Positions 34,507 to 46,045 of a stretch of 64,000 nucleotides of DNA are shown here, piece after piece. Each line of letters opens with the position of its first letter. Position 1 is the stretch's first letter. The stretch spans positions 15,426 to 79,425 of the forward strand of contig DATIPO010000203.1 in NCBI GenBank assembly GCA_035471925.1, in the 5' to 3' direction. The notes beneath the pieces were generated by a model that saw only the letters and a list, made by a program, of their open reading frames with translations, ran no database searches and was not told the DNA's origin. The DNA comes from Acidobacteriota bacterium. GTDB lineage: Bacteria; Acidobacteriota; UBA6911; RPQK01; DATIPO01. A program made the translations under genes and the position numbers.

Positions 34507-34920
34507 CTAACCGGCGGCAGATTCCGGACGGGAAACGATGACTTGATCCTCCTCGACTCTCACCGGGAAGCTCTGTAAAGGGACAACGGGAGGACCGCCC
34601 ACAATGCGGCCCTGCAAGTCGAAACGCCCGTCGTGACAAGGGCAGAAAAGATCTCGCTGTTGAGACCGGAATTCCACCGTGCAGCGGCCATGGGTGCAGT
34701 CGGCGGCCACGGCATAGTAGCGTCCGGGCGTGGCGTGCACGAGAAGAGCCAGGACGTGTCCGTAGCGGAACTTCTTGGAGGAGCCGGGGGCGACTTCGCC
34801 CACTTGGGCGGCTACCACCTGTCGGGGAAGCTGGGGAGGTCCGCAGGCGGCCGCCGCGGCCGAGCCCACTACGAGCTGGAGAAGACGCCGCCTGGGAATT
34901 TCGCGTTTGGAATCTGACAT
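34507..34920 (-). CDS. Tat-secreted Rieske [2Fe-2S] domain protein
   Basis: Twin-arginine leader MSDSKREIPRRRLLQLVVGSAAAAA; Rieske boxes CTHGRC and CPCHDGRF. Confidence 0.75.
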   Translation of the reverse strand: MSDSKREIPRRRLLQLVVGSAAAAACGPPQLPRQVVAAQVGEVAPGSSKKFRYGHVLALLVHATPGRYYAVAADCTHGRCTVEFRSQQRDLFCPCHDGRFDLQGRIVGGPPVVPLQSFPVRVEEDQVIVSRPESAAG

Positions 34921-35105
34921 GCCCGCATTGTAACCAATGACGCTACGCAAGCAGGGCTTCTCGTGCTGGCTCCGGGGCTGTCGTACCCTCATCTCCGTTC
35001 AAGCCGGGCTGCTTCCCGCTCTTACGGTGGCCCTGGTTCTCCCGCGCTCAGAAAGACGGATCAATGAGGTTGCCCTCCGTTCTCTCTGCGGCTCGCCGGC
35101 ACCGG

Positions 35106-36365
35106 CTAGCGCTGGGAAGGTTTCGAGACGGGGATCAGGACCCGGGCGGCCAGGGGTTGGTTCTCTGCGGTGCGGGCTTGGATGGGAGTACCTTCCTGGC
35201 CCAAAGCGGTGATCTGCATGTCTTCGCCTTCGATTTCGACCAGCAGGAAATGAGGCTCGGGCGACCACAGGGCCATGCCGTGTTTCTCCAAGTCGTCGAC
35301 GATGTTCTTGTCGCGGGTGTCGGCGCCGCCGCCGCTGATGATGTAGCGGATGCCCCCGGTTCGCTCAGGGTCACTGACCTGAAGGTTATGCTCGTGACCG
35401 TTGAAGATGACCTGCACGCCGCTCTCTCCCAGCAGCGCTTCGACGTAGTCGAAGCGCTGATCGCGGTCTTCGTAGCGGGGTCCGGCGTTGTAGAGAGGGT
35501 TATGGAAGACGGCCACCCTCCAAGGGAGCCGGGCTGTTGCAAGGGTTGCCTTCAGCCACTGGTGCTGGGCCCCGCGTTCCCGGTAGATAAATCCCTCTTC
35601 CGACCCTTTGTGCCGGGTGCTGTCAAGGATCCAGAACTGGGCCAGATCGGCGAAGGTAAAGGCATAGTAACGTCCAGTGGAGCCTTCGAGGCTGTCGGGA
35701 GGGGGCAGAAAGAAATTGTCCAGGTAGACGGGCAGATCATCGCCCCGTTCACTTTCACTGCCGTCGTGATTCCCCAAGGCCGGATAGAAGGGCACCCGCA
35801 AGAGCAGTTCGCGGTAGGGCCGGAAAAAGCGCTTGTGCCAGTCCTTGTCGCGTTTGCCGGTGTGGCGCTGGTAGAAAAAACTGCCGTAGATGTTGTCGCC
35901 GGTTGTGAGCACGAAGCGAACGGGATTGCCCTCTTGCTCCTGGCTTCGAAGGGTCCTGAACATGACCTGTCCCAGGCGGCTTTGAGTGTCGTTGCCCTTG
36001 CCGTAGTCGCCGATGACCAAAAACGCTACACGCCGGGCCTTCAAGGGGGAGGTCCGCAGGGTCGATTGGGCCAGCAGCCGCTCTCCCAGCCGGACCCGGT
36101 AAGCGTACGGGCGATCGGGTTCGAGTCCCTCGATCACCGTCCAACTGCGCTCCTCCTCCGACATCCGCCGTCCGTCGATCTCGACCTCTACGCGTCCCAG
36201 GGGACGCGCCTGGCGTCCGATGGTGTTGCCGCGGCCCTCGGTTGAGCCCCAGGCCAAACGGGCCGAGTGGGAGGTGAGGCCGGTGATGTAGACGAACGTC
36301 CGCTCTTGGGCTCGCACCAGACCGCAGGTCAGCAACAGCAGGGTAACCGTTTGAAGCTTTCGCAT
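35106..36365 (-). CDS. secreted calcineurin-like metallophosphoesterase (purple-acid-phosphatase-like, with N-terminal FN3-like domain)
   Basis: GDYGKG / GDNIY / GNHD / GHEH metallophosphoesterase motifs. Signal peptide MRKLQTVTLLLLTCGLVRA. Confidence 0.7.
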   Translation of the reverse strand: MRKLQTVTLLLLTCGLVRAQERTFVYITGLTSHSARLAWGSTEGRGNTIGRQARPLGRVEVEIDGRRMSEEERSWTVIEGLEPDRPYAYRVRLGERLLAQSTLRTSPLKARRVAFLVIGDYGKGNDTQSRLGQVMFRTLRSQEQEGNPVRFVLTTGDNIYGSFFYQRHTGKRDKDWHKRFFRPYRELLLRVPFYPALGNHDGSESERGDDLPVYLDNFFLPPPDSLEGSTGRYYAFTFADLAQFWILDSTRHKGSEEGFIYRERGAQHQWLKATLATARLPWRVAVFHNPLYNAGPRYEDRDQRFDYVEALLGESGVQVIFNGHEHNLQVSDPERTGGIRYIISGGGADTRDKNIVDDLEKHGMALWSPEPHFLLVEIEGEDMQITALGQEGTPIQARTAENQPLAARVLIPVSKPSQR

Positions 36366-36437
36366 CGCTTTTCCTATAGTACGGTAATGAAGCATGGGCG
36401 GACACCGGGATGGCGGAAAACGGGGAGTGGAGGAGCG

Positions 36438-37499
36438 ATGATAAACCTCTTCAAGTCAGCCTGTCTGGCGACGCTGCTCCTTTTCTTGGGGGCCTGCGGG
36501 GATGGCCGTCCAGCGGCAAGGGGGCAGCAAGACGATCAACCCGAGGAGGCGCTGGTCACAGTCTATTCCCACCGCGGCTTCGAGGCCGACCAGGAGCTTT
36601 TCCAGCGCTTCAGCGAGCGGACGGGGATCGAGGTCCGCGTGGAGCGGGGCGGGGCCGACGACCTTATTCGGAGATTGCAGCAGGAAGGCCTGGAGTCTCC
36701 GGCCGACATCCTGATGACGGTTGATGCCGGACGCCTCCACCGGGCCAAGACGGAGGGTCTGTTTCAGCCCGTCCGCTCCAAGGTCTTGGAGGCCAACATC
36801 CCCGTCCACCTGCGCGACCCGGCGGGAGAGTGGTTCGGACTCACCAAGCGGGCCCGCGTCATTGCCTACGCGCGGGAACAAGTCACTCCCGGGCAGCTTT
36901 CCAGCTACGAAGACTTGGCTGATGCCCGGTGGAAGGGCAGGATCCTGACCGGATCGGCGGACAACATCTTCACCCAGTCGCTCCTGGCCTCCATCATTCT
37001 GGTCCACGCCCGGCGCGAGGCCGAGGCTTGGGCCCGCGACGTGGTCGCTAACATGGCCGGACCGCCTCCCGCCGACGACCGCGGCCGGATTATGGCGCTG
37101 GCCTCCGGCGAGGCCGATCTGGCCTTGGTCAACACCTATTCGCTGGCTCTGATGTTGAAGTCGGGCAACCCTCGCGAGACTGAGGCCGCCCGGGCGATCG
37201 GTGTCGTCTTTCCCAACCAGCAAGACCGGGGAGCCCACGTCAACATCAGCGGCGCCGGGGTGGCCCGCCACGCTCCCCATCCCGGCAATGCCGTCCGCCT
37301 TCTGGAGTTTCTGAGCGGGGAAGAGGCTCAGCGAGTTTTCGCCTCATCTAACTGCGAGTACCCGGTCAAGGAAGGCGTGGAGTGGGCCGAGCCTCTTCAG
37401 GAGTGGGGGCGATTCCGCGAAGACCAACTCAGCCTCACCGTGGTAGGCGTCTACAATGCCGAAGCCGTGGAGATCATGGGGGAAGTCGGCTGGCCTTGA
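36438..37499 (+). CDS. periplasmic solute-binding lipoprotein, ferric-iron (FbpA/AfuA) type ABC substrate-binding family
   Basis: Lipobox LLLFLGACG after MINLFKSACLATL; SBP_bac_1-like two-lobe architecture. No cognate permease or ATPase adjacent. Confidence 0.6.
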   Translation: MINLFKSACLATLLLFLGACGDGRPAARGQQDDQPEEALVTVYSHRGFEADQELFQRFSERTGIEVRVERGGADDLIRRLQQEGLESPADILMTVDAGRLHRAKTEGLFQPVRSKVLEANIPVHLRDPAGEWFGLTKRARVIAYAREQVTPGQLSSYEDLADARWKGRILTGSADNIFTQSLLASIILVHARREAEAWARDVVANMAGPPPADDRGRIMALASGEADLALVNTYSLALMLKSGNPRETEAARAIGVVFPNQQDRGAHVNISGAGVARHAPHPGNAVRLLEFLSGEEAQRVFASSNCEYPVKEGVEWAEPLQEWGRFREDQLSLTVVGVYNAEAVEIMGEVGWP

Positions 37500-37764
37500 C
37501 GGCAGGGCGGTTATCCCCTCCATTGTGCGATTTGCCCCAGGGCACGCCCGAGCCCGAACTGGGGAGCCGCGATGCTGGAAGCGGTAGACACCGCCAATGT
37601 TTCATTGCCGCCGCTCCGCATGACCAGCATCGGCTTGTCCTCGTCAGTCTTGCCTGGCCTTTCGCCCGTTTCTGTCGGGCACCCCTTCACGCCGTAATGG
37701 CTCCATGATTGCTTGCCTGTTTCTTGGGTTACTCAAGACACTATTGCTCCCGAGGAGGAGCCTC

Positions 37765-38457
37765 ATGAGATATTCGAAATTGCTCGCCTGTTCGTTGTTC
37801 GCGATGGCCTTGGCGCTCTCGCTGATCGTCGTGGCAGCCCAGTCCGAGGGTAAGGCCTGCCCCTATCAGCCGACCGTCCAGCAAGAGCAGCCGCAGGCGC
37901 AGCCTGCACAGGGCCGGCCCATGTACGGAAGACAAGGCCAGGGGCAACGGCATCGTCACGGACAGGGCCATCATGGACAGGGCGCGGGTCAACGCTGCGA
38001 TAATCCCAATTGCCAACACCGCGGAGCGGGTCCAGGCCAATGTCCGGATTGTCCTCAGGGGATGATGAACGATCCTGACCATCAGGACTTCCGCTTCTTG
38101 CTCGACAACCGCCAAGCCATCGACCGCCAAGTGCACCAGTTGGAGAATGGGGTGGAGACTCTGACCGAGTCAGACGATCCTCAGGTGGCGGCCCGCATAC
38201 GCAAGCATGTCAGGGCCATGTACCAGCGCCTCGAAGAGGGGCGTCCGATCCATGCCCGTGACCCGCTTTTCGCCGAAATCTTCCGCCATGTCGACCAGAT
38301 CGACCTGGAAATGGAGGACACTGAGAAGGGGATCCGCGTGCGGGAGACCGCGGCCGATCCGCAAGTGGTCAAGCTCATCAAGGCCCACGCCGAGGTGGTC
38401 AACCTCTTCATCGAGAACGGCCACGCCGAGATGCACCGCAATCACGAGGTGCCCTGA
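37765..38457 (+). CDS. secreted protein with a His/Gly/Gln-rich, Cys-containing N-terminal region and a helical C-terminal domain
   Basis: Signal peptide MRYSKLLACSLFAMALALSLIVVAAQSEG, then ...GQGQRHRHGQGHHGQGAGQRCDNPNCQHRGAGPGQCPDCPQG... GAGGAGG RBS. Confidence 0.5.
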   Translation: MRYSKLLACSLFAMALALSLIVVAAQSEGKACPYQPTVQQEQPQAQPAQGRPMYGRQGQGQRHRHGQGHHGQGAGQRCDNPNCQHRGAGPGQCPDCPQGMMNDPDHQDFRFLLDNRQAIDRQVHQLENGVETLTESDDPQVAARIRKHVRAMYQRLEEGRPIHARDPLFAEIFRHVDQIDLEMEDTEKGIRVRETAADPQVVKLIKAHAEVVNLFIENGHAEMHRNHEVP

Positions 38458-38626
38458 GCCGGCCTGCCTTAAGACTGCATTTGGACCCGCTTGGGCAGGG
38501 CGCCTGCCGCATGGCATGATCAGAAGCCTCCTGGGTCGTCGGGTGCATTCCAAGGCATCCTGACGACATCGCAGGGGAGCTTTCTCCCTTGGCGGGGCCC
38601 TGTGGGTGCAGGGTGCCAGGCGAGGA

Positions 38627-39679
38627 TCACTCGCTGGAAGAGCGGATCCCGGGAAGATGGCCGAAGACTTCTCGAAAGCGCGCCGAACATCGAAAAGAGA
38701 CTCGATCGCCGTCGTTTCCCGGAATGAGGAAACAAGCCGCGATGCCGCGCTCCTGGGCCCATTTCGAGCCCTGATCCGTTCCCATCACGTAGAGAGCGGT
38801 GGAGAGAACGTCGGACGCCAGCCCGCTTTGGTGCCACACCACCGTCGATCCCCGAAAGGACACGGGCCTGCCCGTGCGCGGATCGATGATGTGGGAGACG
38901 GCCTCCCCGTCCACGGTCAGATCGCGCTCAGAGCCACCGCTGACGGCCAAAGAGCCGGCCGCCAGCTTAAGTGCAGTGAGGGTCTGCTGCCGGTGGCGGG
39001 GATGGGCAACCCGGACGTCCCAGTCCAGGCCTCGGGGAGGGTTGCCCCACACCCCGATCTGCCCCCCCAGGTCGGCCATCCAGCCCTTCAGGCCCAGCTT
39101 TTGGGAGTGGGCGAAGGCCCGGTCGAGGGCTTCTCCCTTGCCGAAGGCGCCGGCGTCGATGAGCACCTCACGCTCTTTGGCCACGGTACAGGCCTGGGGA
39201 TCGAAGCGAATGTGCCGGAGTCCGCTGGCCTGCAAGGCCGCCTCCAGTTCGGGGGCTTGGGCCAGATGTCCTCGGCCGCGGATGTCCCAGGCTTCGAGGA
39301 GGCGTCCGATGAAGGGGTCAAAAGCGCCCCCGGTCTCGTAATGCCAGCGGCGCAGTTCCTCGAAAAGCCGGCAGAGTCCTGGATGGAGGGCCAAGGGCTG
39401 AAAGAGTGGTTGCTGGTTGAGGAGGCTGAGACGGCTATTGGGGCGCCAAGTGCTCAGCTCGCCCTCGCTTGCCTCCAGCAGGGTCAACAAGCTTTCAAGT
39501 CCCCTGATGGCGGACTCGCGATCGGCAGCCACGGCCGCCAGACGGCAGCGCGTCCCCATCAGATAGACTTGCCGTTCCACCACTACTTGGGGCCCCTCGC
39601 GGCCTCCCTGGGCGGCCGGCTGCGAGGCGAGAAATCCGATGCTGATCCAGGTCAGGACTAAGGCAGAGGATAAGCGCAT
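38627..39679 (-). CDS. apbE: FAD:protein FMN transferase (ApbE family flavin transferase), secreted or lipoprotein
   Basis: ApbE motifs (GGAFDPFIGRLLEAWDI; IDAGAFGKGEALDRA; SVSGGSERD). Start at MRLSSALVLTWISIGFLAS. The ORF-track extension to 40105 was rejected because it overlaps the upstream gene. Confidence 0.75.
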   Translation of the reverse strand: MRLSSALVLTWISIGFLASQPAAQGGREGPQVVVERQVYLMGTRCRLAAVAADRESAIRGLESLLTLLEASEGELSTWRPNSRLSLLNQQPLFQPLALHPGLCRLFEELRRWHYETGGAFDPFIGRLLEAWDIRGRGHLAQAPELEAALQASGLRHIRFDPQACTVAKEREVLIDAGAFGKGEALDRAFAHSQKLGLKGWMADLGGQIGVWGNPPRGLDWDVRVAHPRHRQQTLTALKLAAGSLAVSGGSERDLTVDGEAVSHIIDPRTGRPVSFRGSTVVWHQSGLASDVLSTALYVMGTDQGSKWAQERGIAACFLIPGNDGDRVSFRCSARFREVFGHLPGIRSSSE

Positions 39680-39696
39680 TGTTTGAGCCCACCCGC

Positions 39697-40176
39697 TCAG
39701 GCCGCAATGGCCTTGTTTCCCCGGCGGGAGCTGTGCTTGAGGTTCGAGGCCGGACGCCAGTTGCGCAGACCTACGATGAGGTGGACCAAGTAGACCAGCG
39801 CGAACAGTCCGCCGCTGACCAGGTGGACGATCAGAGCCGCCTGCAGGACCGTTTCCTGAGTGACCACTTGAAGGGCGTATCCGCTGATGGCCATGAGGGG
39901 GAAAACCAGCAGGCTGGCCAATCCGCTGCGGCGTCCCTGGGGCTGCCCGTTCCGCAGCTTGCGCATGACGTGGCTGTTGAAGAAGACCCCGAAGACGAAG
40001 AGCAGCAGGGGCGAAAACAAAATGTGGCCGTGCAGCATCAGGTTCTGCCAGGGATGGTTGATGATGCTGAAAGGATCTTCGCTCTCCAGCAGATACTTCA
40101 TCCAAAAGTAGAGGACGCCGGTGGCCGTCACGCCCAATGTCAGCAAATGGAGAGACCAGCGGTAAAAGCTTTTCAT
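39697..40176 (-). CDS. small 4-TM membrane protein with conserved His residues (DUF4405-like, candidate b-type haem-binding electron-transfer subunit)
   Basis: 159 aa, four hydrophobic helices with His in or near them (HLLTLGV..., HPWQNLMLHGHILF..., NSHVMRK, HLVSGGLFALVYLVHLIVG). AGGAGG RBS. ATGA overlap with the upstream FMN-binding gene. Confidence 0.5.
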   Translation of the reverse strand: MKSFYRWSLHLLTLGVTATGVLYFWMKYLLESEDPFSIINHPWQNLMLHGHILFSPLLLFVFGVFFNSHVMRKLRNGQPQGRRSGLASLLVFPLMAISGYALQVVTQETVLQAALIVHLVSGGLFALVYLVHLIVGLRNWRPASNLKHSSRRGNKAIAA

Positions 40177-40790
40177 CGGCCTCCTCCTTTTCCGGGCGCG
40201 GGTCGGCCCGGCTCCTGCCGCAGGACCTGATCGATGGCCATGACCCTGCGGACGGCCCGGTTGACAGCCCGCGCCGTCAAGGTGGCGCCGGCCAGCGGAC
40301 GGATGTCGCGGTTGAGGTTGAGGTCGCCCTTCAGTGCTTTGCCGTGATACTGACGCCGCCATTCCTCGGGCGCTTCATATTCGGGCGGTTCCAGGAAGGC
40401 CGTTGTTTCAATCCGTTTCAGTGTGCCGTCGGCGTTCAGGCAGATCAGCAGAGATTCCTTCTTGGTGCGCACCACGTGGGTGTCGACGTAGGCCCGTCCG
40501 ACTTGCTGGCCGTCGCGGGAGGCCAGGTAGCGGGCGATCAGCGCGGTAGGTACCTCCACGCCCGCTATCTCTGCGGCCTGGTTCTGTTGGTCTTGGCTCA
40601 GGAAAACCCGCTCTGACCTGAATTCGGCCTGGGGATAGGCGGCCTTCAAAGCTTCCTGGCGGCTGATGGCAGCCCATGCCGGAAGCCAAGCCGTCAGCAG
40701 GACGGCAGCCAGGGCCGCCGTCCGCCGAAGGACATTGGGACGGACGGCTTCCCCGTCCTGTGGCTGTCGGAATGGGCTTTCGGCTTTCAA
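40173..40790 (-). CDS. FMN-binding domain protein (FMN_bind, RnfG/NqrC-like) carrying the ApbE flavinylation motif
   Basis: C-terminal DIRPLAGATLTARAVNRAVRRV matches the D-x-x-S/T-G-A-T-L/I-T-S/A flavinylation and FMN_bind signature. Start set at TTG 40790 (GGGAGA RBS), giving a signal-like MKAESP...RRTAALAAVLLTAWLPAWAA. The ATG at 40865 would overlap the porin gene by 53 bp. Confidence 0.65.
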   Translation of the reverse strand: MKAESPFRQPQDGEAVRPNVLRRTAALAAVLLTAWLPAWAAISRQEALKAAYPQAEFRSERVFLSQDQQNQAAEIAGVEVPTALIARYLASRDGQQVGRAYVDTHVVRTKKESLLICLNADGTLKRIETTAFLEPPEYEAPEEWRRQYHGKALKGDLNLNRDIRPLAGATLTARAVNRAVRRVMAIDQVLRQEPGRPAPGKGGGR

Positions 40791-40812
40791 GTCGTTGTGT
40801 CTCCCGATTCGA

Positions 40813-42246
40813 TCAGAAGGAGTATCCCAACGCCACGTTGAACTGGTTAACTCCCGTGTCGGCATCGTTGCTGATCCACTGATAATCGGCCTTGAGGACG
40901 ACGTTGTAGATCGGCTTGTACTCCAGGCCCAGGGTGTTGAAGACGCGTTCGCGGGAAGGATCAGGCAGGAATCCCGCTAAGACCTCGTCCTGCGTGTCCA
41001 GGAACTCGAAGCGGTAGTAAGGCATGAGGCTGGCGGTCTCGTTGAACTCGTTGAGCACGTTGTAGCCCACATGAAAATAGCCGCCCTGCATGCTTTCGGC
41101 CACCGAATCGTCGCCGCTCAGTCCCAGGAACTGATTGAGCTCCACTGCGTCGTCGATGCTCGACTTGGCGTAGAGGCCGCGTATGTCGAATCCCCTCAAC
41201 TGGACCTGTCCGTGCAACTCGCCGATAGTGGTGGCCACGTCGAAGTCTTGCCCTTCCAGGACGATCTCCCCTTGTCCCGAACCGCCACGGTAAATGGAGC
41301 CTCCGAAGAAGATTCCCGGGGTGGGGTTGACGTCGAGGCGTCCTACAAAGGCCAGGTTGTCGGCCCGGGCTTCGGAGCCCTTCTGGCGTCCGCCGCGGAA
41401 ACCGTTGGAACTGAACTGGCTGGCGCGGAGTCCGTTGACCACGTAGGCGCGGTAGTCGAAGATCCCCGCCGAGCCGTGGAAGCCGAAGCCGTTCTCCCGC
41501 CATGTGGTGGGAATGATGCGCTGCTCTACGACGGGACGGCGGGCGCCCACGAAAACGTTGGGCTCGTGGAATTCGTTGACCAGCCCCATGGGAACCAGCA
41601 GAATGCCCCCTCGCAGATTGAAGCTTTCGTGGGCAAGATAGTCGATGTAGGCGAATTCCACCGAAACGCTGCCTTCGACGTCGGTCGACCCATGTTCGAC
41701 TTCGATCTCTGAGTTGAAGAGGAACTTGTCGTTGAAGCGGTAGCCGGCATAGAGGATGGCCCGCAAAAAGTCGAGTCGCGTGGTCTGGTCGACGTCTTCA
41801 CCCGACTCGTTTTCATTGGCGAAGTTCTCATAGAGCATCTCGCCGTATCCGGCCAAGGCCACGCCCCGCCTCTTGCGGTAGACCGATGCGGCCGAGGGAG
41901 CGATGCCCAAGGACTTGGCGTCCTCGTTCGTGACCACTAACTCCTCTTCGCCGCTGCGTACCTTCTCAAGCTCTTCGGCCAGGACGTCGACTTGACGGCG
42001 CAGTTCATCGACGTCCACCGTCATTTCATCAGCGGGTTTTTTCTCAGCTTCTTTCTGGTCCTGCTTTTTCTCTTGCTTCTCGGCGGATTCCTCCTCTTGC
42101 TGCTTCTCTTCCAGCCGTTTGAGGCGCTTCTCGATTTCTTCCAGCTTCTTCAAAACCTCCTGATTGAGGTCCTGGCCTTGAAGGGTGACCGGAGCCGCCA
42201 AGAAAAGGGCGGCGATACAGACCGTTACAATCCACTTTCTTGCCAT
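40813..42246 (-). CDS. outer-membrane beta-barrel porin with N-terminal coiled-coil (phosphate-selective porin O/P-like family)
   Basis: Signal peptide MARKWIVTVCIAALFLAAPVTLQG, Lys/Glu coiled-coil, alternating beta-strand pattern, C-terminal ...VALGYSF (terminal Phe). Confidence 0.65.
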   Translation of the reverse strand: MARKWIVTVCIAALFLAAPVTLQGQDLNQEVLKKLEEIEKRLKRLEEKQQEEESAEKQEKKQDQKEAEKKPADEMTVDVDELRRQVDVLAEELEKVRSGEEELVVTNEDAKSLGIAPSAASVYRKRRGVALAGYGEMLYENFANENESGEDVDQTTRLDFLRAILYAGYRFNDKFLFNSEIEVEHGSTDVEGSVSVEFAYIDYLAHESFNLRGGILLVPMGLVNEFHEPNVFVGARRPVVEQRIIPTTWRENGFGFHGSAGIFDYRAYVVNGLRASQFSSNGFRGGRQKGSEARADNLAFVGRLDVNPTPGIFFGGSIYRGGSGQGEIVLEGQDFDVATTIGELHGQVQLRGFDIRGLYAKSSIDDAVELNQFLGLSGDDSVAESMQGGYFHVGYNVLNEFNETASLMPYYRFEFLDTQDEVLAGFLPDPSRERVFNTLGLEYKPIYNVVLKADYQWISNDADTGVNQFNVALGYSF

Positions 42247-42457
42247 GATTCAAGTGTTCCTTTCCGGAAAACGGCGAATTGACTCCCTTCTGAGGACGGG
42301 CCTATACTGGAAGCACGTGAAATTTTGGGTTGAGACCGTTTCACGTTGGGGCGCGTCATGTTCCAGGCGCGTCCCTTTTCTTATCCACCGCTCGTCTAGA
42401 ATTTCTGGCCTTTCGGCCTTCCTGCGAAGACGCATAAAAGCGCCCTCGTTTTTTTGT

Positions 42458-42480
42458 TGTTGAGAATCATTCTCAACAAG
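42458..42480. promoter_or_regulatory. perfect 23-bp palindrome TTGTTGAGAAT-C-ATTCTCAACAA; candidate Fur-family (Zur/Fur-like) operator
   Basis: An 11-1-11 perfect inverted repeat in the divergent intergenic region between the porin (start 42246, minus strand) and tandem ZIP metal transporters (start 42725, plus strand). Core TGAGAATCATTCTCA resembles 7-1-7 Fur-family boxes. Confidence 0.5.
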
Positions 42481-42724
42481 ACGGGCCAAAGGGTACTAGC
42501 TTGGTCCCATTTATGTCAAGCCCCTTTATGGAGAAGCGGGTGCCCCTTCTTTCCAGCGGCCACGAGGAATCGGTCGAGGGGGCTTGAGGCGGGCTCAGTC
42601 GCTCTTTTTCTGAGCTCCTCCGGGCTACCCATGAGGCCAGCGATTGCGGGCCGATGGGGCCTGTCAGGGCTGTTTGACGGCTGAGGGCTCTTTTCCATTC
42701 GAGGCCGCTTTGTTAAATAATGAA

Positions 42725-43477
42725 CAGATGGATCAGCAACCGGTCCTTGTCGTGCTCTTGTACAGTGGTTTGGCGGCTGCATTCGCCAGCCTGGGCGCTT
42801 TGCCCTTTTTGCGGCGGGGCGGGCCTGGACGTTTTTCCATCGGGTCGGCCTACAGTTTCGCCTCCGGTCTCATGCTGGGGGCCGGATACCTTCTGATGAG
42901 CGAAGCGTTGGTTCACGGCAAGGCCGACCTCGTCGTCGTCGGCGCAGCCTTGGGTGTGGGATTCACCTGGTGGACGCAATCTTACGCCGGCACCGAGGAA
43001 CTGCGGCGCGATGCCCAAGCCAAGCCCGACCGTCCGGAATACGGGTATAAGATCCTGCTTCAGAACGCCCTGCATTCTGCTGCTGAGGGCGTGGCCATTG
43101 GAGCCTCCATGGCCTACGATCTTGGTCTCGGCGTTTTCATCGCTTTAGCCTTAGCCGTTCACAATGTCGGCGAGGCCACGGCTTTGACTTCGCTCTTGAC
43201 GCAGCGAGGAGTCACGGTGCGCCAGTCGGCTGGACTGTGTGTTTCGGTCAAGACGCCTCAGGCGGTTTTCGCCATCACCGCCTTCGCCCTTACTTCGGCT
43301 CTCCGCCCCTGGCTGCCTCTGGCTTTGGGATTGGCGGCCGGAGCCATGGTTTACCTGGTCATTTCGGAATTGTTGCCTTCCTCATACAAGCGCGCCCCCA
43401 AGTCGGCGGTGGCCTTGTTGGTGAGCATCAGCGCGGGAGCCGTGATACTGCTCAGGTCGTTCTTCATGGCGTCCTGA
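42725..43477 (+). CDS. ZIP family divalent-metal (zinc) transporter
   Basis: Eight TM helices; HSAAEGVAIG and HNVGEATAL metal-binding motifs typical of ZupT/ZIP. Confidence 0.7.
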   Translation, partial: QMDQQPVLVVLLYSGLAAAFASLGALPFLRRGGPGRFSIGSAYSFASGLMLGAGYLLMSEALVHGKADLVVVGAALGVGFTWWTQSYAGTEELRRDAQAKPDRPEYGYKILLQNALHSAAEGVAIGASMAYDLGLGVFIALALAVHNVGEATALTSLLTQRGVTVRQSAGLCVSVKTPQAVFAITAFALTSALRPWLPLALGLAAGAMVYLVISELLPSSYKRAPKSAVALLVSISAGAVILLRSFFMAS

Positions 43478-43499
43478 GGGGTGTTGGGAGGATCCGATC

Positions 43500-44231
43500 A
43501 TGTACTACGAACTTGGGATCGTTTTCCTGGCTGGACTGATCACCGCCGTGGCAACCGGACTCGGTGCCATCCCCTTCGCCTTCATGCGTACGGTATCGGG
43601 ACGCACCCTGGGGCTGGCTAACGGAGTGGCTTCCGGACTCATGCTGGGCGCCAGCTTCGGACTCTTCAGCGAAGGCAGCGTCTACGGACTGTGGCAGACT
43701 GTGGCGGGCGCGGCCGTGGGAGTGGCCTTCGTGTTTTTCGGCGAGCGCTTTTTGCAGGACAAGGAGGTCGAATTCGGCGACATCCGGGGCGCGGGAGCCC
43801 GGCGCATCCTGCTCATCATCGCCATCATGACGCTGCATTCCTTCTCAGAGGGCGTTGCCGTCGGCGTCAGTTTCGGGGGCGGTGAGAAGCTGGCGGCGTT
43901 GATCACCATCGCCATCGCCGTCCACAACATCCCTGAAGGGCTGGCCATCAGCGCCGTGATGCGTCCCCGCGGCAGCAGCGTGTGGGCGTGTGCCGGGTGG
44001 AGCGTCTTTTCCTCCCTTCCCCAGCCCCTGATGGCGGTTCCGGCGTTTGCCTTCGTCGAGGCTTTCCGAGCCGTTCTTCCCTACGGACTGGGCTTCGCGG
44101 CCGGCGCCATGGTCTACATGGTGTTTCTGGAACTCCTGCCGGAGGCCTTCGAAGAGGCCAATCCCAGCCGGGTGGGCTTGTTGGTCAGTTTGACTTTAGG
44201 GGCCATGATCCTCTTCCAGAAATACCTGTAA
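43500..44231 (+). CDS. ZIP family divalent-metal (zinc) transporter, tandem paralog
   Basis: HSFSEGVAVG and HNIPEGLAIS motifs, ZupT-like. Confidence 0.7.
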   Translation: MYYELGIVFLAGLITAVATGLGAIPFAFMRTVSGRTLGLANGVASGLMLGASFGLFSEGSVYGLWQTVAGAAVGVAFVFFGERFLQDKEVEFGDIRGAGARRILLIIAIMTLHSFSEGVAVGVSFGGGEKLAALITIAIAVHNIPEGLAISAVMRPRGSSVWACAGWSVFSSLPQPLMAVPAFAFVEAFRAVLPYGLGFAAGAMVYMVFLELLPEAFEEANPSRVGLLVSLTLGAMILFQKYL

Positions 44232-44260: not shown

Positions 44261-44689
44261 ATGCACTGGGGCGGGGAAGCGGCTTGGGGACTGGCGGCGG
44301 GAGTTGCACTGGCGCTTCTCGTCTATTGGGTGGTCCGCGGACGCTCCTGGCGGGGACGCCGCAGGCTCTTCATGTGGGTGGTGGCACTGACTCACCTGCC
44401 TTATTTGGCCTTCGCCTTGATCTGGCGGCCTCCGGCTCTGGGACATGAGGCGCTGATCCTGATTCCCTTCCTGGCGGCGGCGCTGGCAGGCGGACGTTGG
44501 ATGCCCCTCTTGCTGGGACTGGGACTAGCGGCTCACAGCCTGGTCGACATCTTCCATCCGCTTCAGGACGGCCCGGCCTATGCGCCCCATTGGTACCGCT
44601 GGGCCTGCATTTCATTTGACTGGCTGCTGGGCGGCTACGCCCTTTGGGCGCTGCGCGACTCCAGCCACTCGATCAGTTCACCCAGGTGA
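44261..44689 (+). CDS. hypothetical membrane protein
   Basis: About 142 aa, 4 predicted TM helices, GAAGGGA RBS. No recognised family. Confidence 0.4.
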   Translation: MHWGGEAAWGLAAGVALALLVYWVVRGRSWRGRRRLFMWVVALTHLPYLAFALIWRPPALGHEALILIPFLAAALAGGRWMPLLLGLGLAAHSLVDIFHPLQDGPAYAPHWYRWACISFDWLLGGYALWALRDSSHSISSPR

Positions 44690-45351
44690 GCAATCTCGTG
44701 GTAGTCGGCTTGTCGTACCTTGTCCTCATCGGCCATCTCGTTGACCCAGGTGTCGTGGTAAGGAACGTGCAGCGCATGTCCGCCGATGGAGAGCACCGGC
44801 AAGATGTCGGACTTGAGCGAATTGCCCACCATCAAGAAGCGCTCGGGAGCCAAGCTGTAGCGGCGCAGGATGGTGCGGTAGGTGTCAGGCGCTTTCTCGC
44901 TGACGATTTCCACATGTTCGAAGAAATCGGCCAGCCCTGAGCGTGCCACTTTGGCTTCCTGATCGAAGAGGTCTCCCTTGGTGATGATCATCAGGGGGAT
45001 GCCTCCGTGCAGCCGGCGAATGGTCTCTTCGACGTGCGGCAGCAAGTCGATGGGGGCTTTGAGCATGGCTTTGCCGAACTCGAGAATGCGTTCGATTTCG
45101 CTGCCCGACACCCGGCCCTCGCTCATCTCGATGGCGGTCTCGATCATGGAGAGGGTGTAGCCTTTGACGCCGTATCCAAAGATCTCCAGGTTGCGGCGCT
45201 CGGTTTCGATCAGGCGCTGTGCAATCCAATCGGGATCCTTATAGGCCGACAGCATTTCCCCGAAGCGTTCTTCGGTTTGGGTGAAGAGGTCGAGGTTGCG
45301 CCAAAGCGTGTCGTCGGCGTCAAAAGCGATGATGTCGAAGCGCTGGTTCAT
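44635..45351 (-). CDS. HAD-superfamily hydrolase
   Basis: DIIAFDADDTLW (the DxDx[T/V] motif I); motif III/IV region ...MVGNSLKSDILP. Confidence 0.65.
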   Translation of the reverse strand: MNQRFDIIAFDADDTLWRNLDLFTQTEERFGEMLSAYKDPDWIAQRLIETERRNLEIFGYGVKGYTLSMIETAIEMSEGRVSGSEIERILEFGKAMLKAPIDLLPHVEETIRRLHGGIPLMIITKGDLFDQEAKVARSGLADFFEHVEIVSEKAPDTYRTILRRYSLAPERFLMVGNSLKSDILPVLSIGGHALHVPYHDTWVNEMADEDKVRQADYHEIAHLGELIEWLESRSAQRA

Positions 45352-45367
45352 TCCGGTTGCGGACTCC

Positions 45368-46045
45368 TCAGGGGGCTTTCCAGATGGGTCCCAACGAGGG
45401 ATAGAGTTCGATGGAGGGCTCGTTGCGGGGCGGCTGCACGGCCACATTCAACTGAGGACGGGCGTTGGGCGCGAAAAAGGTCAGCGCCGGACGGCCCTGC
45501 TGGTCGAGCACCAGCGCGGCCCGGGAGTTGTTGGCCTGGTCCTTGAGAAAGAACTGGGGACGTCCTTCCTCGTCCACCAACAGCGCCAGCCGGTCGTCGC
45601 CGTCGCCGTCGCGCATGCGCAGCATGGGATAGTCGTTGTCGGCCACGCCCAGCCGCGAACGGATGGTGCCCTGCTGGTCATGCAGCGTCACATTGGGCGT
45701 CCCGTCGGGAAAGATGGCCAGTCCTACGCGGATGGCGCCTTCCCGACTGCGCAGAGCCAGGCCGGGACTTCCGTCGGGCAGCAATCCCAAGATGGCCCGG
45801 GCGTTTCCGTCGCGGTCGTAGAGGTAGATGCTGCTGCGGCCTTCCTCATCGGCCTCCAGGCGCATGCGCAAATTGCCCAGTTCGTCCACCAGTTCAAGCT
45901 GGCGGAGGCGCAGGGTCTGATCGGCGTCCTGCCCCTGTTGACGGGCCCAGGCTCCCTGGGGAACCATGATCCAGCAGACTGCTGCGCTGACCACCACCGC
46001 CGTCAGGGCGGTAAACACCATCGACTTCAACTGACGTGCATCCAT
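45368..46045 (-). CDS. membrane-anchored or secreted protein with ~23-residue periodic repeats
   Basis: N-terminal hydrophobic helix, then more than 5 repeats of D..G..R..LGL/ALL..D..G.P... spacing. Start ATG at 46045; the ORF-track extension to 46849 overlaps the permease gene on the same strand and was rejected. Confidence 0.45.
   Translation of the reverse strand: MDARQLKSMVFTALTAVVVSAAVCWIMVPQGAWARQQGQDADQTLRLRQLELVDELGNLRMRLEADEEGRSSIYLYDRDGNARAILGLLPDGSPGLALRSREGAIRVGLAIFPDGTPNVTLHDQQGTIRSRLGVADNDYPMLRMRDGDGDDRLALLVDEEGRPQFFLKDQANNSRAALVLDQQGRPALTFFAPNARPQLNVAVQPPRNEPSIELYPSLGPIWKAP

What the first reader, a model, noticed from the sequence alone, without database searches (positions are those of the whole stretch)
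38627..42246. Porin / FMN-binding / His-rich 4-TM / ApbE operon: candidate extracytosolic flavin-based electron-transfer module
Four minus-strand genes are tightly packed: ATGA overlap between the FMN_bind and 4-TM genes, an 18-bp gap before apbE, and a 23-bp gap after the porin. ApbE is the enzyme that covalently attaches FMN to Thr/Ser in the motif D-x-x-S/T-G-A-T, and the adjacent FMN_bind protein carries exactly this motif (DIRPLAGATLTARAV), so it is the predicted substrate. The small 4-TM protein has several His near or inside its helices, like DUF4405-type dihaem cytochrome-b partners reported in ApbE-associated clusters. An outer-membrane porin at the head of the operon would complete a conduit from the inner membrane to the periplasm and outer membrane. 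This resembles flavin-based extracellular electron transfer loci (Listeria EET; Méheust et al. survey) but adds a dedicated porin and occurs in an Acidobacteria-like background where such systems are not characterised.
Basis: partly seen in the sequence, partly recalled or inferred. Interest (0 to 1): 0.65.

Follow-up and report, generated by a model that had tools for sequence, protein, structure and literature searches.

The report
Iron-regulated porin–flavoprotein–cytochrome b operon
A four-gene operon (outer-membrane porin, periplasmic flavin-carrying protein, small inner-membrane cytochrome-b-like protein, flavin-attaching enzyme ApbE) is real, is conserved in at least 181 mostly acidobacterial species, and sits behind the same DNA operator as classical iron-uptake genes, so it is most likely an undescribed way of reducing and acquiring iron, not a respiratory electron outlet.

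Summary
Four tightly packed minus-strand genes encode an OprP-like 16-strand porin, an RnfG-like FMN-binding protein with an export signal, a 159-aa 4-TM protein and ApbE.

The same set recurs in about 69 of 80 related genome loci. No other neighbour is conserved.

The 4-TM protein belongs to an unannotated family of at least 1,500 clusters. Four histidines are essentially invariant and are placed as two transmembrane pairs. Its fold is closest to dihaem cytochromes b (HyaC, FdnI, CybB). It is not DUF4405. Natural 4-TM–ApbE fusions exist.

The flavinylation motif is not "exact". The family carries R-P-[ILV]-A-G-A-[T/S]-L-T, which lacks the canonical Asp and the -3 Ser/Thr. The Thr does align with the flavinylated Thr of RnfG.

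The new finding is a 7-1-7 palindrome (TGAGAATCATTCTCA, 42461-42475) at the operon head. It is present in 59 of 80 loci. Its common 19-mer variant also precedes PepSY_TM, TonB-dependent receptor, FeoAB, FTR1, P19 and ferritin genes, so it marks a Fur-type iron regulon.

Best reading: an iron-starvation-induced reductive iron-acquisition module. It is a new variant of the known flavinylation/iron-assimilation systems, not Listeria-type extracellular electron transfer (EET). All biochemistry is inferred.

The parts
42457..42479 (.). Perfect 23-bp palindrome TTGTTGAGAATCATTCTCAACAA. Its core is a 7-1-7 Fur-family-type operator, TGAGAATCATTCTCA, at 42461-42475.
   Evidence: Found by the repeat finder. 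It is the only match in the 64-kb window and is conserved in the close relative L001. The TGA[GA]A-N5-T[CT]TCA box lies within -450..+250 of the first module gene in 59 of 80 loci, with about 5 boxes elsewhere in 900 kb. Degenerate copies occur in about 7 more loci. The 19-mer variant also precedes iron-uptake genes.
42514..42519 (-). TTGACA -35-like hexamer of the putative operon promoter. It lies 44 nt upstream of the operator, the same geometry as in the two-box loci (TTGAC to second box, about 41 nt).
   Evidence: Conserved block in the window/L001 alignment. Box-to-TTGAC arrangement seen across loci. The -10 element is not clear: the consensus scan did not call this promoter.
40813..42246 (-). 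Outer-membrane porin, 477 aa. It has a signal peptide, a helical (coiled-coil-like) N-terminal region of about 75 residues with a conserved segment at 78-100, a 16-strand OprP-like barrel, and a C-terminal ...GYSF.
40173..40790 (-). Exported RnfG/NqrC-like FMN-binding protein, 205 aa. The signal-like N-terminus is ...RRTAALAAVLLTAWLPAWA|AIS. The predicted flavinylation site is T170, in R-P-L-A-G-A-T-L-T.
   Evidence: Pfam FMN_bind 20.9 bits against a cut-off of 22. At least 1,359 homologues. T170 is T in 109 and S in 11 of 120 sequences; G168 is 120/120 and A169 118/120. The family profile hits RnfG 9eri_G at E 1.3e-4, with T170 aligned to the flavinylated Thr. All 29 aligned members have N-terminal hydrophobic segments.
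39697..40176 (-). 4-TM inner-membrane protein, 159 aa: a probable dihaem cytochrome b of an unannotated family. H51 and H118 lie near the periplasmic face, H69 and H132 near the cytoplasmic face, and H41 sits in the periplasmic loop motif NHPWQ.
38627..39679 (-). ApbE, the FAD:protein FMN transferase, 350 aa, with an N-terminal signal-like segment.
   Evidence: PF02424 at 194 bits. Best PDB hit is V. cholerae ApbE 6nxi, E 2e-28. The window's ...SHIIDPRTGRP aligns with the catalytic His that is mutated in 6nxj.
42728..44231 (+). Two tandem ZIP-family (ZupT-like) divalent-metal importer genes, divergent from the operon. They are possible Fe(II) sinks in this lineage. They are context only, not part of the conserved module.
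   Evidence: Pfam Zip and NCBIfam ZupT hits. The pair is conserved next to the module only in the close relative L001 and is absent from the other 80 loci.

Best explanation
This is an iron-starvation-induced, self-contained reductive iron-acquisition module. The proposed mechanism has five steps.

1. A Fur-type repressor occupies the 7-1-7 operator just downstream of the operon promoter. When iron is scarce it leaves, and the four genes are co-transcribed.
2. ApbE, outside the cytoplasm, transfers FMN from FAD onto Thr170 of the exported RnfG-like protein.
3. The 4-TM protein binds two b-type haems, one pair of histidines (H51/H118) near the periplasm and one pair (H69/H132) near the cytoplasm. 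It carries electrons from the (mena)quinol pool or a cytoplasmic donor across the inner membrane to that flavin.
4. The trimeric OprP-like porin admits a small soluble iron species, such as a ferric carboxylate or other low-molecular-weight chelate, or a diffusible redox shuttle.
5. The reduced flavoprotein converts Fe(III) to Fe(II). Co-regulated or neighbouring Fe(II) importers then take it up: ZIP here, FeoAB or FTR1/P19 elsewhere.

What is shown here: gene identity, packing and synteny; residue conservation; the predicted folds; and the sharing of the operator with iron-uptake genes.

What is inferred: haem binding, flavinylation, the direction of electron flow, the porin's substrate, and ferric reduction itself.
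For: Module unity:
- The genes overlap or lie 17-22 nt apart.
- The same four genes occur together in about 69 of 80 genome loci, and in permuted order (ApbE first) in L003 and L007.
- No other neighbour is conserved in more than 16 of 80 loci.
- Natural 4-TM-ApbE fusion proteins exist.

Components:
- ApbE scores 194 bits and keeps the catalytic His.
- The FMN_bind family profile matches RnfG, with the Thr aligned and a T/S-only exchange at that position.
- The 4-TM protein has four essentially invariant His in TM2 and TM4. The positive-inside rule places them as two cross-membrane pairs (sequence). The fold is closest to dihaem cytochromes b.

Iron link:
- The palindrome sits at the operon head in 59 of 80 loci, with about 5 boxes elsewhere in 900 kb.
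- It precedes whichever gene comes first: ApbE in L003, FMN_bind in barrel-less loci.
- It flanks a TTGAC -35 element.
- Of 84 metagenome contigs carrying the 19-mer, about 26 have the module next to it, 16 PepSY_TM, 13 a TonB-dependent receptor, 4 FTR1, 4 FeoA-FeoB and 3 ferritin.
- Extra boxes precede a P19 gene in L069 and an Fbp-like ABC operon in L019.
- In the window the operon is flanked by two ZIP importers, a CitMHS metal-citrate-type transporter and an SBP_bac_6 binding protein.

Precedent: flavinylation clusters with PepSY-like, MsrQ-like or P19 partners are already linked to Fur-regulated iron assimilation (PMC8238504; Caulobacter Fur regulon, PMC3751524).
Against: - No biochemical step is demonstrated.
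- The flavinylation motif departs from D-x-x-[S/T]-G-A-[S/T] at two of its five specified positions.
- The regulon was mapped with the Vicinamibacterales variant of the operator (TGAGACTCAGTCTCA), not the window's variant (TGAGAATCATTCTCA). For the window organism the link rests on shared architecture and position only.
- No Fur gene was found in the window or the loci, and Fur-, Zur- and PerR-type boxes look alike.
- Ferritin behind the same box is atypical for simple Fur repression.
- About 11 of 80 loci lack an adjacent porin. In one case the porin gene appears to lie elsewhere in what is probably the same genome (L008 and L025 come from contigs of identical length).
- The porin's selectivity is unknown. 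Its lumen carries conserved acidic, basic and His residues (a rough analysis).
- Direction of electron flow cannot be read from sequence.
Confidence: 0.6

Rival explanations
1. Respiratory or extracellular electron transfer. The module would export respiratory electrons from the quinol pool via cytochrome b and the flavoprotein to extracellular acceptors such as Fe(III) minerals or electrodes. The porin would let a flavin or other soluble shuttle cycle across the outer membrane.
For: The architecture (membrane electron carrier, flavinylated extracytosolic protein, ApbE) is the same logic as the Listeria EET and other flavinylated systems (PMC8238504). An OprP-like, anion-type channel could in principle pass phosphorylated flavins (fold only).
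Against: - The module lies in an iron-uptake regulon with TonB receptors, FeoAB, FTR1 and PepSY_TM. That indicates induction by iron scarcity, the opposite of what is expected for use of abundant Fe(III) as a respiratory acceptor.
- No Ndh2, EetA/B, Dmk, multihaem cytochrome or terminal reductase is conserved nearby.
- None of the four proteins has a CXXCH motif (sequence).
- A 16-strand porin cannot itself conduct electrons.
Confidence: 0.12
2. Homeostasis of another metal. The box would be a Zur-, Mur- or copper-related operator, and the module would reduce or handle another metal, for example Cu(II) to Cu(I) for uptake, or would support zinc or manganese acquisition through the adjacent ZIP importers.
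For: - Two ZIP (ZupT-like) genes are divergently adjacent in the window and in L001.
- Some loci carry TGAAAATGATTTTCA. From my memory, this resembles actinobacterial Zur boxes.
- Zur also binds 7-1-7 palindromes (PMC3323870).
- PepSY_TM proteins have recently been tied to copper supply for oxidases (title and abstract of PMC13038864).
Against: The genes sharing the operator are the classic iron set: FeoAB, FTR1, P19, ferritin, TonB-dependent receptors. No ZnuABC, COG0523, ribosomal-protein paralogues or copper genes were seen among them. ZIP genes are absent from the other 80 loci. Zinc needs no redox chemistry.
Confidence: 0.12
3. Periplasmic redox maintenance or oxidative-stress defence, or electron flow in the reverse direction. 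The cytochrome b and flavoprotein would collect electrons from a periplasmic or incoming reductant (superoxide as for CybB, a reduced shuttle, or Fe(II)) and deliver them to the quinone pool. Alternatively they would re-reduce damaged periplasmic components as MsrPQ does. Iron regulation would then reflect an iron-sparing substitution.
For: The closest folds include CybB superoxide oxidase and the quinone-reducing HyaC and FdnI, which carry electrons inward. Meheust et al. note that direction could be reversed in such systems. PerR boxes are also 7-1-7 (from my memory; not checked in a paper here).
Against: No partner reductase or oxidase (such as MsrP) is conserved in the cluster. The co-regulated genes are uptake systems, not catalases, peroxidases or Dps. 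A dihaem protein is a poor iron-sparing device.
Confidence: 0.1

Closest known systems
Flavinylation-associated iron-assimilation clusters: PepSY-like/FoxB with DUF2271 and ApbE; MsrQ-like with FMN_bind; P19-FTR1 with FMN_bind (Meheust et al. 2021, PMC8238504; Huang et al. 2024, PMC11334425)
   Same: The logic is the same: ApbE, an ApbE-flavinylated extracytosolic protein, and a His-ligated haem membrane protein for transmembrane electron transfer. These systems are Fur-regulated and linked to iron uptake. In these Acidobacteriota, PepSY_TM genes sit behind the same operator as the module.
Prokaryotic cytochrome b561 / Ni_hydr_CYTB family (PF01292): HyaC, FdnI, CybB
   Different: The window protein scores 18 bits against a cut-off of 30.1. 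The family profile finds no PDB sequence. Both TM2 and TM4 carry two His, and TM1 has no invariant His. From my memory, FdnI uses TM1, TM2 and TM4. The partner is a flavinylated periplasmic protein, not a hydrogenase or formate dehydrogenase.
RnfG / NqrC FMN-binding subunits
   Same: Full-length profile match to RnfG 9eri_G (E 1.3e-4), with the flavinylated Thr aligned. The G-A-T-L-T core and the N-terminal hydrophobic segment are shared.
   Different: No RnfD/E or NqrB/D/E partners are present. Motif positions -6 (Arg, not Asp) and -3 (Ala, not Ser/Thr) are non-canonical. Pfam FMN_bind scores are at or below the cut-off for most members.
OprP/OprO phosphate-selective porins and DcaP
   Different: Only 16% identity. 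There is no Porin_O_P hit for the window protein, and 3 of 50 members hit weakly. The family has its own signature motifs (NSEIExEH, NEFHEP, RIIP[ST]TWRENG, RGGRQKG). It is operonic with redox genes and under an iron-regulon operator.
Listeria EET locus (Ndh2, EetA/B, DmkA/B, PplA, FmnA/B) and porin-cytochrome conduits (MtrCAB)
   Same: An extracytosolic flavinylated protein plus an ApbE-type enzyme, as in Listeria. An outer-membrane barrel is co-encoded with electron carriers, as in Mtr.
DUF4405 (PF14358) flavinylation-associated cytochromes and FezC
   Same: A small His-rich membrane protein next to apbE. Four conserved His are proposed to bind haem b.
   Different: DUF4405 is described as having six TM helices and occurring in Proteobacteria and Firmicutes. 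None of 17 members of this family hits PF14358 even at E<=1. This family has 4 TM helices.

Membership tests
ApbE (PF02424, FAD:protein FMN transferase) | Pfam score above the gathering cut-off over the full domain | tested here: met
   194.4 bits against a cut-off of 25.6, covering profile positions 1-266 of 266.
ApbE (PF02424, FAD:protein FMN transferase) | Catalytic His (V. cholerae His257) and the surrounding H-I-I-D-P-x-T-G motif | tested here: met
   The window's ...vsHIIDPRTGRP aligns with ...ysHIIDPTTGRP of 6nxi. The 6nxj mutant has Gly at that position.
ApbE (PF02424, FAD:protein FMN transferase) | Extracytosolic location (signal peptide or lipobox) | tested here: inconclusive
   The N-terminus MRLSSALVLTWISIGFLASQPAAQG is signal-like by inspection and has no Cys lipobox. 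No signal-peptide predictor was available.
FMN_bind / RnfG-NqrC type flavinylation substrate (PF04205) | Pfam score above the gathering cut-off | tested here: not met
   20.9 bits against 22. Only 6 of the 120 listed homologues carry a precomputed PF04205 hit.
FMN_bind / RnfG-NqrC type flavinylation substrate (PF04205) | Homology to a structurally characterised flavinylated subunit, with the target Thr aligned | tested here: met
   Family profile against RnfG 9eri_G: E 1.3e-4 over residues 40-197. 'irPlaGatLta' aligns with 'iqaITGSTITS'.
FMN_bind / RnfG-NqrC type flavinylation substrate (PF04205) | Canonical motif D-x-x-[S/T]-G-A-[S/T] (PMC12052999) | tested here: not met
   The family motif is R-P-[ILV]-A-G-A-[T/S]. 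Position -6 is R in 119/120 and position -3 is A in 115/120. G, A and the T (109) or S (11) are kept. The review reports that D-to-A substitution had only minor effects on flavinylation, so attachment remains plausible.
FMN_bind / RnfG-NqrC type flavinylation substrate (PF04205) | Covalent FMN on the Thr | not testable with these tools
   Needs co-expression with ApbE followed by UV-fluorescence SDS-PAGE or mass spectrometry.
DUF4405 (PF14358) | Pfam match and the six-TM architecture described by Huang et al. 2024 | tested here: not met
   No PF14358 hit for any of the 17 members at E<=1. The model has four TM helices. DUF4405 is described as six-TM.
Prokaryotic cytochrome b561 / Ni_hydr_CYTB (PF01292) | Pfam score above the gathering cut-off | tested here: not met
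   18 bits against 30.1 for the window protein. Six of 17 members hit weakly, best E 4.2e-6.
Prokaryotic cytochrome b561 / Ni_hydr_CYTB (PF01292) | Four-helix TM bundle fold resembling HyaC, FdnI or CybB | tested here: inconclusive
Prokaryotic cytochrome b561 / Ni_hydr_CYTB (PF01292) | Four conserved His able to form two bis-His haem sites across the membrane | tested here: met
   H51 and H69 conserved in 150/150, H118 and H132 in 147/150 divergent cluster representatives. Their placement follows from the helix limits and the positive-inside rule (inference).
Prokaryotic cytochrome b561 / Ni_hydr_CYTB (PF01292) | Haem b binding | not testable with these tools
   Needs a pyridine haemochrome assay or spectra of purified protein.
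OprP/OprO-type general porin (PF07396) | Sequence membership (Pfam) | tested here: not met
   No hit for the window protein. Three of 50 family members hit at best E 9.5e-4.
OprP/OprO-type general porin (PF07396) | 16-strand barrel fold with an outer-membrane targeting signal | tested here: met
Listeria-type flavin-based EET locus | Ndh2, EetA/EetB, DmkA/DmkB and PplA together with FmnB | tested here: not met
   Only ApbE and one FMN_bind protein are present. Neighbours are ZIP, HAD, CitMHS, an SBP and a metallophosphatase. Nothing else is conserved in 80 loci.
Porin-cytochrome conduit (MtrCAB/Pcc) | Multihaem c-type cytochromes (CXXCH) and a large sheath barrel | tested here: not met
Fur-type iron regulon member | 7-1-7 inverted-repeat operator at the promoter, shared with iron-uptake genes | tested here: met
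   Operator at 42461-42475. Present in 59 of 80 loci. It abuts a TTGAC -35 element. The same 19-mer lies upstream of PepSY_TM, TonB-dependent receptor, FeoAB, FTR1 and ferritin genes and of P19 and Fbp-like ABC genes. The 7-1-7 architecture is described for Fur in PMC11353095.
Fur-type iron regulon member | Binding by Fur and derepression under iron limitation | not testable with these tools
   No Fur gene was found in the held DNA. Needs EMSA or ChIP and expression data.

The most novel reading that the evidence does not exclude
This would be a TonB-independent reductive iron-uptake route built from a dedicated outer-membrane diffusion porin, a covalently flavinylated periplasmic ferric reductase, and a previously unrecognised family of minimal (about 150 aa, 4-TM) dihaem cytochromes b that powers it from the quinol pool. 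It would be a major iron-acquisition strategy of soil and sediment Acidobacteriota. It would also be the first case where a porin is an obligate, co-regulated part of a flavin-based extracytosolic electron-transfer system.
Probability: 0.35. Interest if true: 0.75.

Novelty: new variant of a known kind. Interest (0 to 1): 0.62.

Why it matters
**Iron biology of Acidobacteriota.** Acidobacteriota, especially Vicinamibacterales, are among the most abundant soil bacteria, and their iron acquisition is essentially uncharacterised. This operon is the most frequent target of their apparent Fur operator: about 26 of 84 operator sites sampled. If it is a ferric reductase system, it is probably a main route of iron supply.

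**Three unannotated protein families gain a working hypothesis.**
- A porin family with more than 4,000 sequences and no Pfam domain.
- A 4-TM family with at least 1,500 clusters and five near-invariant histidines.
- An RnfG-like family that falls at or under the Pfam cut-off and carries a non-canonical ApbE motif. That may be why Pfam- and motif-based flavinylation surveys could have missed it.

**A predicted operator.** The 7-1-7 operator gives a usable Fur-box model for a phylum that has none to my knowledge.

**Directly testable claims.** Each inferred step can be tested: haem content, covalent flavin on T170, iron-dependent expression, and ferric reductase activity.

Tried and rejected
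**DUF4405 membership.** Rejected. No Pfam hit in 17 of 17 members, and 4 TM helices against the 6 described.

**Flavinylated barrel (DUF3570-like).** Rejected. The window barrel and the four homologues checked contain no [STA]G[AS][ST] motif, and the window protein has no DUF3570 hit.

**Listeria-type EET and Mtr-type conduit.** Rejected on missing components.

**Functional clues from conserved neighbours.** All-against-all clustering of ORFs in 80 loci found nothing beyond the four genes in more than 16 loci. The commonest extras (PAP2, SBP_bac_3, NifU, NhaC, Mrp) look like lineage-specific synteny.

**Other iron genes in the loci.** ZIP, SBP_bac_6, FbpBC and P19 are adjacent only sporadically.

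**Steps that could not be run or that found nothing.**
- The search for related loci with the 4-TM alignment failed because no stretch was conserved enough. The FMN_bind alignment was used instead.
It was rebuilt.
- The AFDB50 fold library was unavailable.
- An Rfam scan of 38400-42800 found nothing meaningful.
- The 4-TM family profile found no PDB sequence relatives.
- The lumen-facing residue analysis of the barrel used a hand-copied secondary-structure string that was one character too long. It is only indicative.
- Full-text searches for ApbE combined with porin, cytochrome b or Acidobacteria found no description of this module.

Full report

Yes. On the minus strand of 38627-42246 there are four co-directional genes:
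- a 477-aa protein at 40813-42246;
- a 205-aa protein at 40173-40790, with a TTG start preceded by GGGAG, identical to the public annotation P0138;
- a 159-aa protein at 39697-40176, whose ATG overlaps the upstream stop as ATGA and follows AAGGAGGAGG;
- a 350-aa protein at 38627-39679.

The gaps are 22 nt and 17 nt.

Pfam gives ApbE at 194 bits, FMN_bind at 20.9 bits (cut-off 22), a sub-threshold Ni_hydr_CYTB hit for the small membrane protein (18 bits, cut-off 30.1), and nothing for the first protein. NCBIfam recognises only ApbE.

**2. The four genes are a conserved unit.**

- The exact 4-TM protein is from an Acidobacteriota MAG.
- A 78%-identical relative (L001) has the same four genes and the same two upstream ZIP genes.
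- Distant homologues at 37-47% identity keep the set but in the order ApbE-barrel-FMN_bind-4TM (L003, L007).
- A scan of species-representative genomes with the FMN_bind family signature found 181 loci. Most are Acidobacteriota (many Vicinamibacterales, also Terriglobia and Aminicenantes), with a few labelled Gemmatimonadota, Latescibacterota and other phyla.
- In the 80 loci fetched, my HMM searches found barrel-FMN_bind-4TM-ApbE in about 69. Eleven lack an adjacent barrel. In one of those, the barrel gene appears to lie elsewhere in what is probably the same genome: L008 and L025 come from contigs of identical length, 6,077,182 bp.
- The 4-nt FMN_bind/4-TM overlap is kept in 58 of 78 loci.
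- Clustering all neighbouring ORFs showed nothing else conserved in more than 16 of 80 loci.
- Six of six long proteins found by the 4-TM profile are 4-TM-ApbE fusions.

**3. What each protein is.**

*ApbE.* The best solved relative is V. cholerae ApbE (E 2e-28). The catalytic His is conserved: it aligns with the residue that differs between 6nxi and the 6nxj mutant.

*FMN_bind protein.* The family has at least 1,359 members at about 60% identity. All 29 aligned members begin with a hydrophobic, signal-like segment. The family profile matches RnfG (9eri_G, E 1.3e-4) over its whole length and aligns T170 with the flavinylated Thr.

In 120 homologues the site is T in 109 and S in 11, and G168 and A169 are nearly invariant. 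Position -6 is Arg (119/120) and position -3 is Ala (115/120). This deviates from the canonical D-x-x-[S/T]-G-A-[S/T]. The review that states that motif also reports that D-to-A substitution had only minor effects (PMC12052999).

*4-TM protein.* The word-indexed search found only 17 relatives. A profile search of 1.84 billion cluster representatives found 1,502 at E<=1e-3 and 268 at E<=1e-30. Among the best 150, H51 and H69 are conserved in 150/150, H118 and H132 in 147/150, and H41 in 145/150.

The AF2 model (pLDDT 84.7) has four long helices. By the positive-inside rule (my inference from the sequence), the N- and C-termini and the R/K-rich 70-84 loop are cytoplasmic. That puts H51 (TM2) and H118 (TM4) near the periplasm, and H69 (TM2) and H132 (TM4) near the cytoplasm, which is the layout of a dihaem transmembrane wire.

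I therefore file this as a new family, analogous to and perhaps remotely related to the HyaC/cytochrome b561 family, and not as DUF4405.

The most conserved parts are the segment 78-100, strand motifs such as NSEIExEH, and the long 219-250 loop (NEFHEP...RIIPxTWRENG). I take that loop to be the constriction loop (inference). The barrel has no flavinylation-like motif. "Porin" is therefore supported by fold. Its selectivity is unknown.

**4. The unexpected part: an iron-regulon operator.**

The intergenic region upstream of the barrel gene contains a perfect 23-bp palindrome at 42457-42479. Its core is the 7-1-7 repeat TGAGAATCATTCTCA. It is the only such site in the 64-kb window, and it is conserved, together with an adjacent TTGACA block, in L001.

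Across the 80 genome loci:
- A box TGA[GA]A-N5-T[CT]TCA lies within -450..+250 of the first module gene in 59 loci. Only about 5 boxes lie elsewhere in 900 kb. My estimate of chance occurrence is about 2 per 900 kb.
- About 7 more loci have one-off variants, some with the classical Fur half-site TGATAAT.
- The box precedes whichever gene is first: ApbE in L003, FMN_bind in barrel-less loci.
- Many loci have two boxes about 64 bp apart. The first abuts a TTGAC -35 element. The window's TTGACA-to-box distance (44 nt) matches the position of the second box.

Extra boxes in the loci lie directly upstream of a P19 / Fe2+-transport gene (L069) and of an FbpC-like ATPase / SBP_bac_6 / permease operon (L019).

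To map the regulon I scanned metagenome contigs for the commonest 19-mer, AAAGTGAGACTCAGTCTCA. It gave 84 contigs. The adjacent genes were:
- the module, about 26 contigs;
- PepSY_TM, 16;
- TonB-dependent receptors, 13;
- FTR1, 4;
- FeoA-FeoB, 4;
- ferritin, 3;
- a few others (Pfam confirmation).

This is an iron regulon, and 7-1-7 repeats are the recognised unit of Fur boxes (PMC11353095). There are two caveats. The scan used the Vicinamibacterales variant of the box, not the window's variant. No Fur gene is in the DNA I hold.

**5. Mechanism.**

The best-supported reading is an iron-starvation-induced reductive iron-acquisition module:
- ApbE flavinylates the exported RnfG-like protein.
- The dihaem 4-TM protein passes electrons across the inner membrane to the flavin.
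- The flavoprotein reduces Fe(III) species in the periplasm.
- The porin supplies the substrate or a shuttle.
- Fe(II) enters through ZIP, FeoB or FTR1 transporters.

In the window the operon is flanked by two ZIP importers, a CitMHS-family transporter and an SBP_bac_6 protein. This context is suggestive but is not conserved elsewhere.

The precedent is direct. Flavinylation clusters with PepSY-like, MsrQ-like or P19 partners are linked to Fur-regulated iron assimilation (PMC8238504; PMC3751524). Periplasmic ferric-siderophore reduction followed by FeoAB uptake is described in Bradyrhizobium (abstract of PMC10760861).

Haem binding, flavin attachment, electron direction, porin substrate and ferric reduction are all inferred.

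**6. Rivals.**

- *A Zur- or copper-type system.* Adjacent ZIP genes and Zur-like box variants hint at this, but the co-regulated genes are iron-specific.
- *Reverse or protective electron flow (CybB-like).* This cannot be excluded from sequence, but no partner enzyme is conserved.

**7. Novelty.**

'Porin' and 'Acidobacter...' do not occur in the main text of either flavinylation survey. 'Cytochrome b' did not occur in the 2021 survey and 'b561' did not occur in the 2024 one, each term being searched in one paper only. The membrane partners they list are Nqr, Rnf, NosR, Pce-type and EET systems, then NapH-like, MsrQ-like, PepSY-like, DsbD and NQR/RNF-like, and later DUF4405. Full-text searches found no description of this module.

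I rate it a new variant of a known kind: flavinylation-linked extracytosolic electron transfer for iron assimilation, with a new cytochrome family, a non-canonical substrate motif and a dedicated porin. The absence from the literature is limited to the library I could search.

Noticed in passing
window 42279-42388 (+): A good sigma-70-type promoter (TTGACT-N18-TATACT, 42279-42308) is followed by a 77-nt stretch that folds into two strong hairpins (-30.7 kcal/mol, z -3.7). The second hairpin (42348-42375) is GC-rich and followed by a U-run, which is terminator-like. The element is antisense to the roughly 240-nt leader of the porin operon. Its promoter hexamers and its terminator stem and T-run are conserved in L001. 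It is a candidate small cis-antisense RNA.
   Followed up: partly
window 37705-38457 (+): A 250-aa protein with a signal-like N-terminus, convergent with apbE. It has a Gln/Gly/His-rich low-complexity stretch (…GQGQRHRHGQGHHGQG…) and a C-x4-C…C-x2-C cluster. It has no Pfam, NCBIfam or PDB match and may be a periplasmic metal-binding protein.
   Followed up: partly
window 42728-44231 (+), 44635-45447 (-), 46156-47430 (-), 36267-37499 (+): The window-specific metal-transport neighbourhood consists of two tandem ZIP (ZupT-like) importers, a HAD hydrolase, a CitMHS citrate/metal-citrate-type transporter and an SBP_bac_6 (Fe3+/thiamine/AEP-type) binding protein. The ZIP-HAD-CitMHS side is syntenic in L001. 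None of it is conserved in the other loci.
   Followed up: partly
P0268, P0287, P0324, P0326, P0331, P0334; L020 6504-7979; L034 6570-8039; P0345: Natural fusions of the 4-TM protein to ApbE were Pfam-confirmed for six proteins. The L020 and L034 ORFs look the same by length only. P0345 joins the 4-TM domain to a Phenol_MetA_deg outer-membrane barrel domain, which may be a gene-call artefact or a variant module with a different barrel.
   Followed up: partly
L019 591 and 4524: The promoter/operator is duplicated. Nearly the same sequence, (A/G)AATCTGAAAGTGAGACTCAGTCTCAGT, precedes both an FbpC-like ATPase / SBP_bac_6 / permease operon and the porin operon immediately downstream.
   Followed up: yes
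L038 2930-4644: A DDE_5 transposase is inserted between the operator and the porin gene. This probably uncouples that copy of the operon from its promoter.
   Followed up: partly
L070 7989-8552 (-), L083 10433-11011 (+), L089 11006-11560 (+): Some Vicinamibacterales genomes carry a second FMN_bind paralogue (about 200-212 bits to the family HMM) within 1.5-5 kb downstream of the module.
   Followed up: no
L093-L176 (metagenome contigs with the 19-mer operator): Apart from iron-uptake genes, the operator also sits next to M16 peptidase (4 contigs), VWA-domain protein (2) and ABC ATPase (2) genes. Ferritin (3 contigs) behind the same box suggests the regulator may act on storage as well as on uptake.
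   Followed up: partly
window 34507-34992 (-), 35106-36395 (-): A small exported Rieske [2Fe-2S] protein and a calcineurin-like metallophosphoesterase lie just beyond the SBP gene. No link to the module was found.
   Followed up: no
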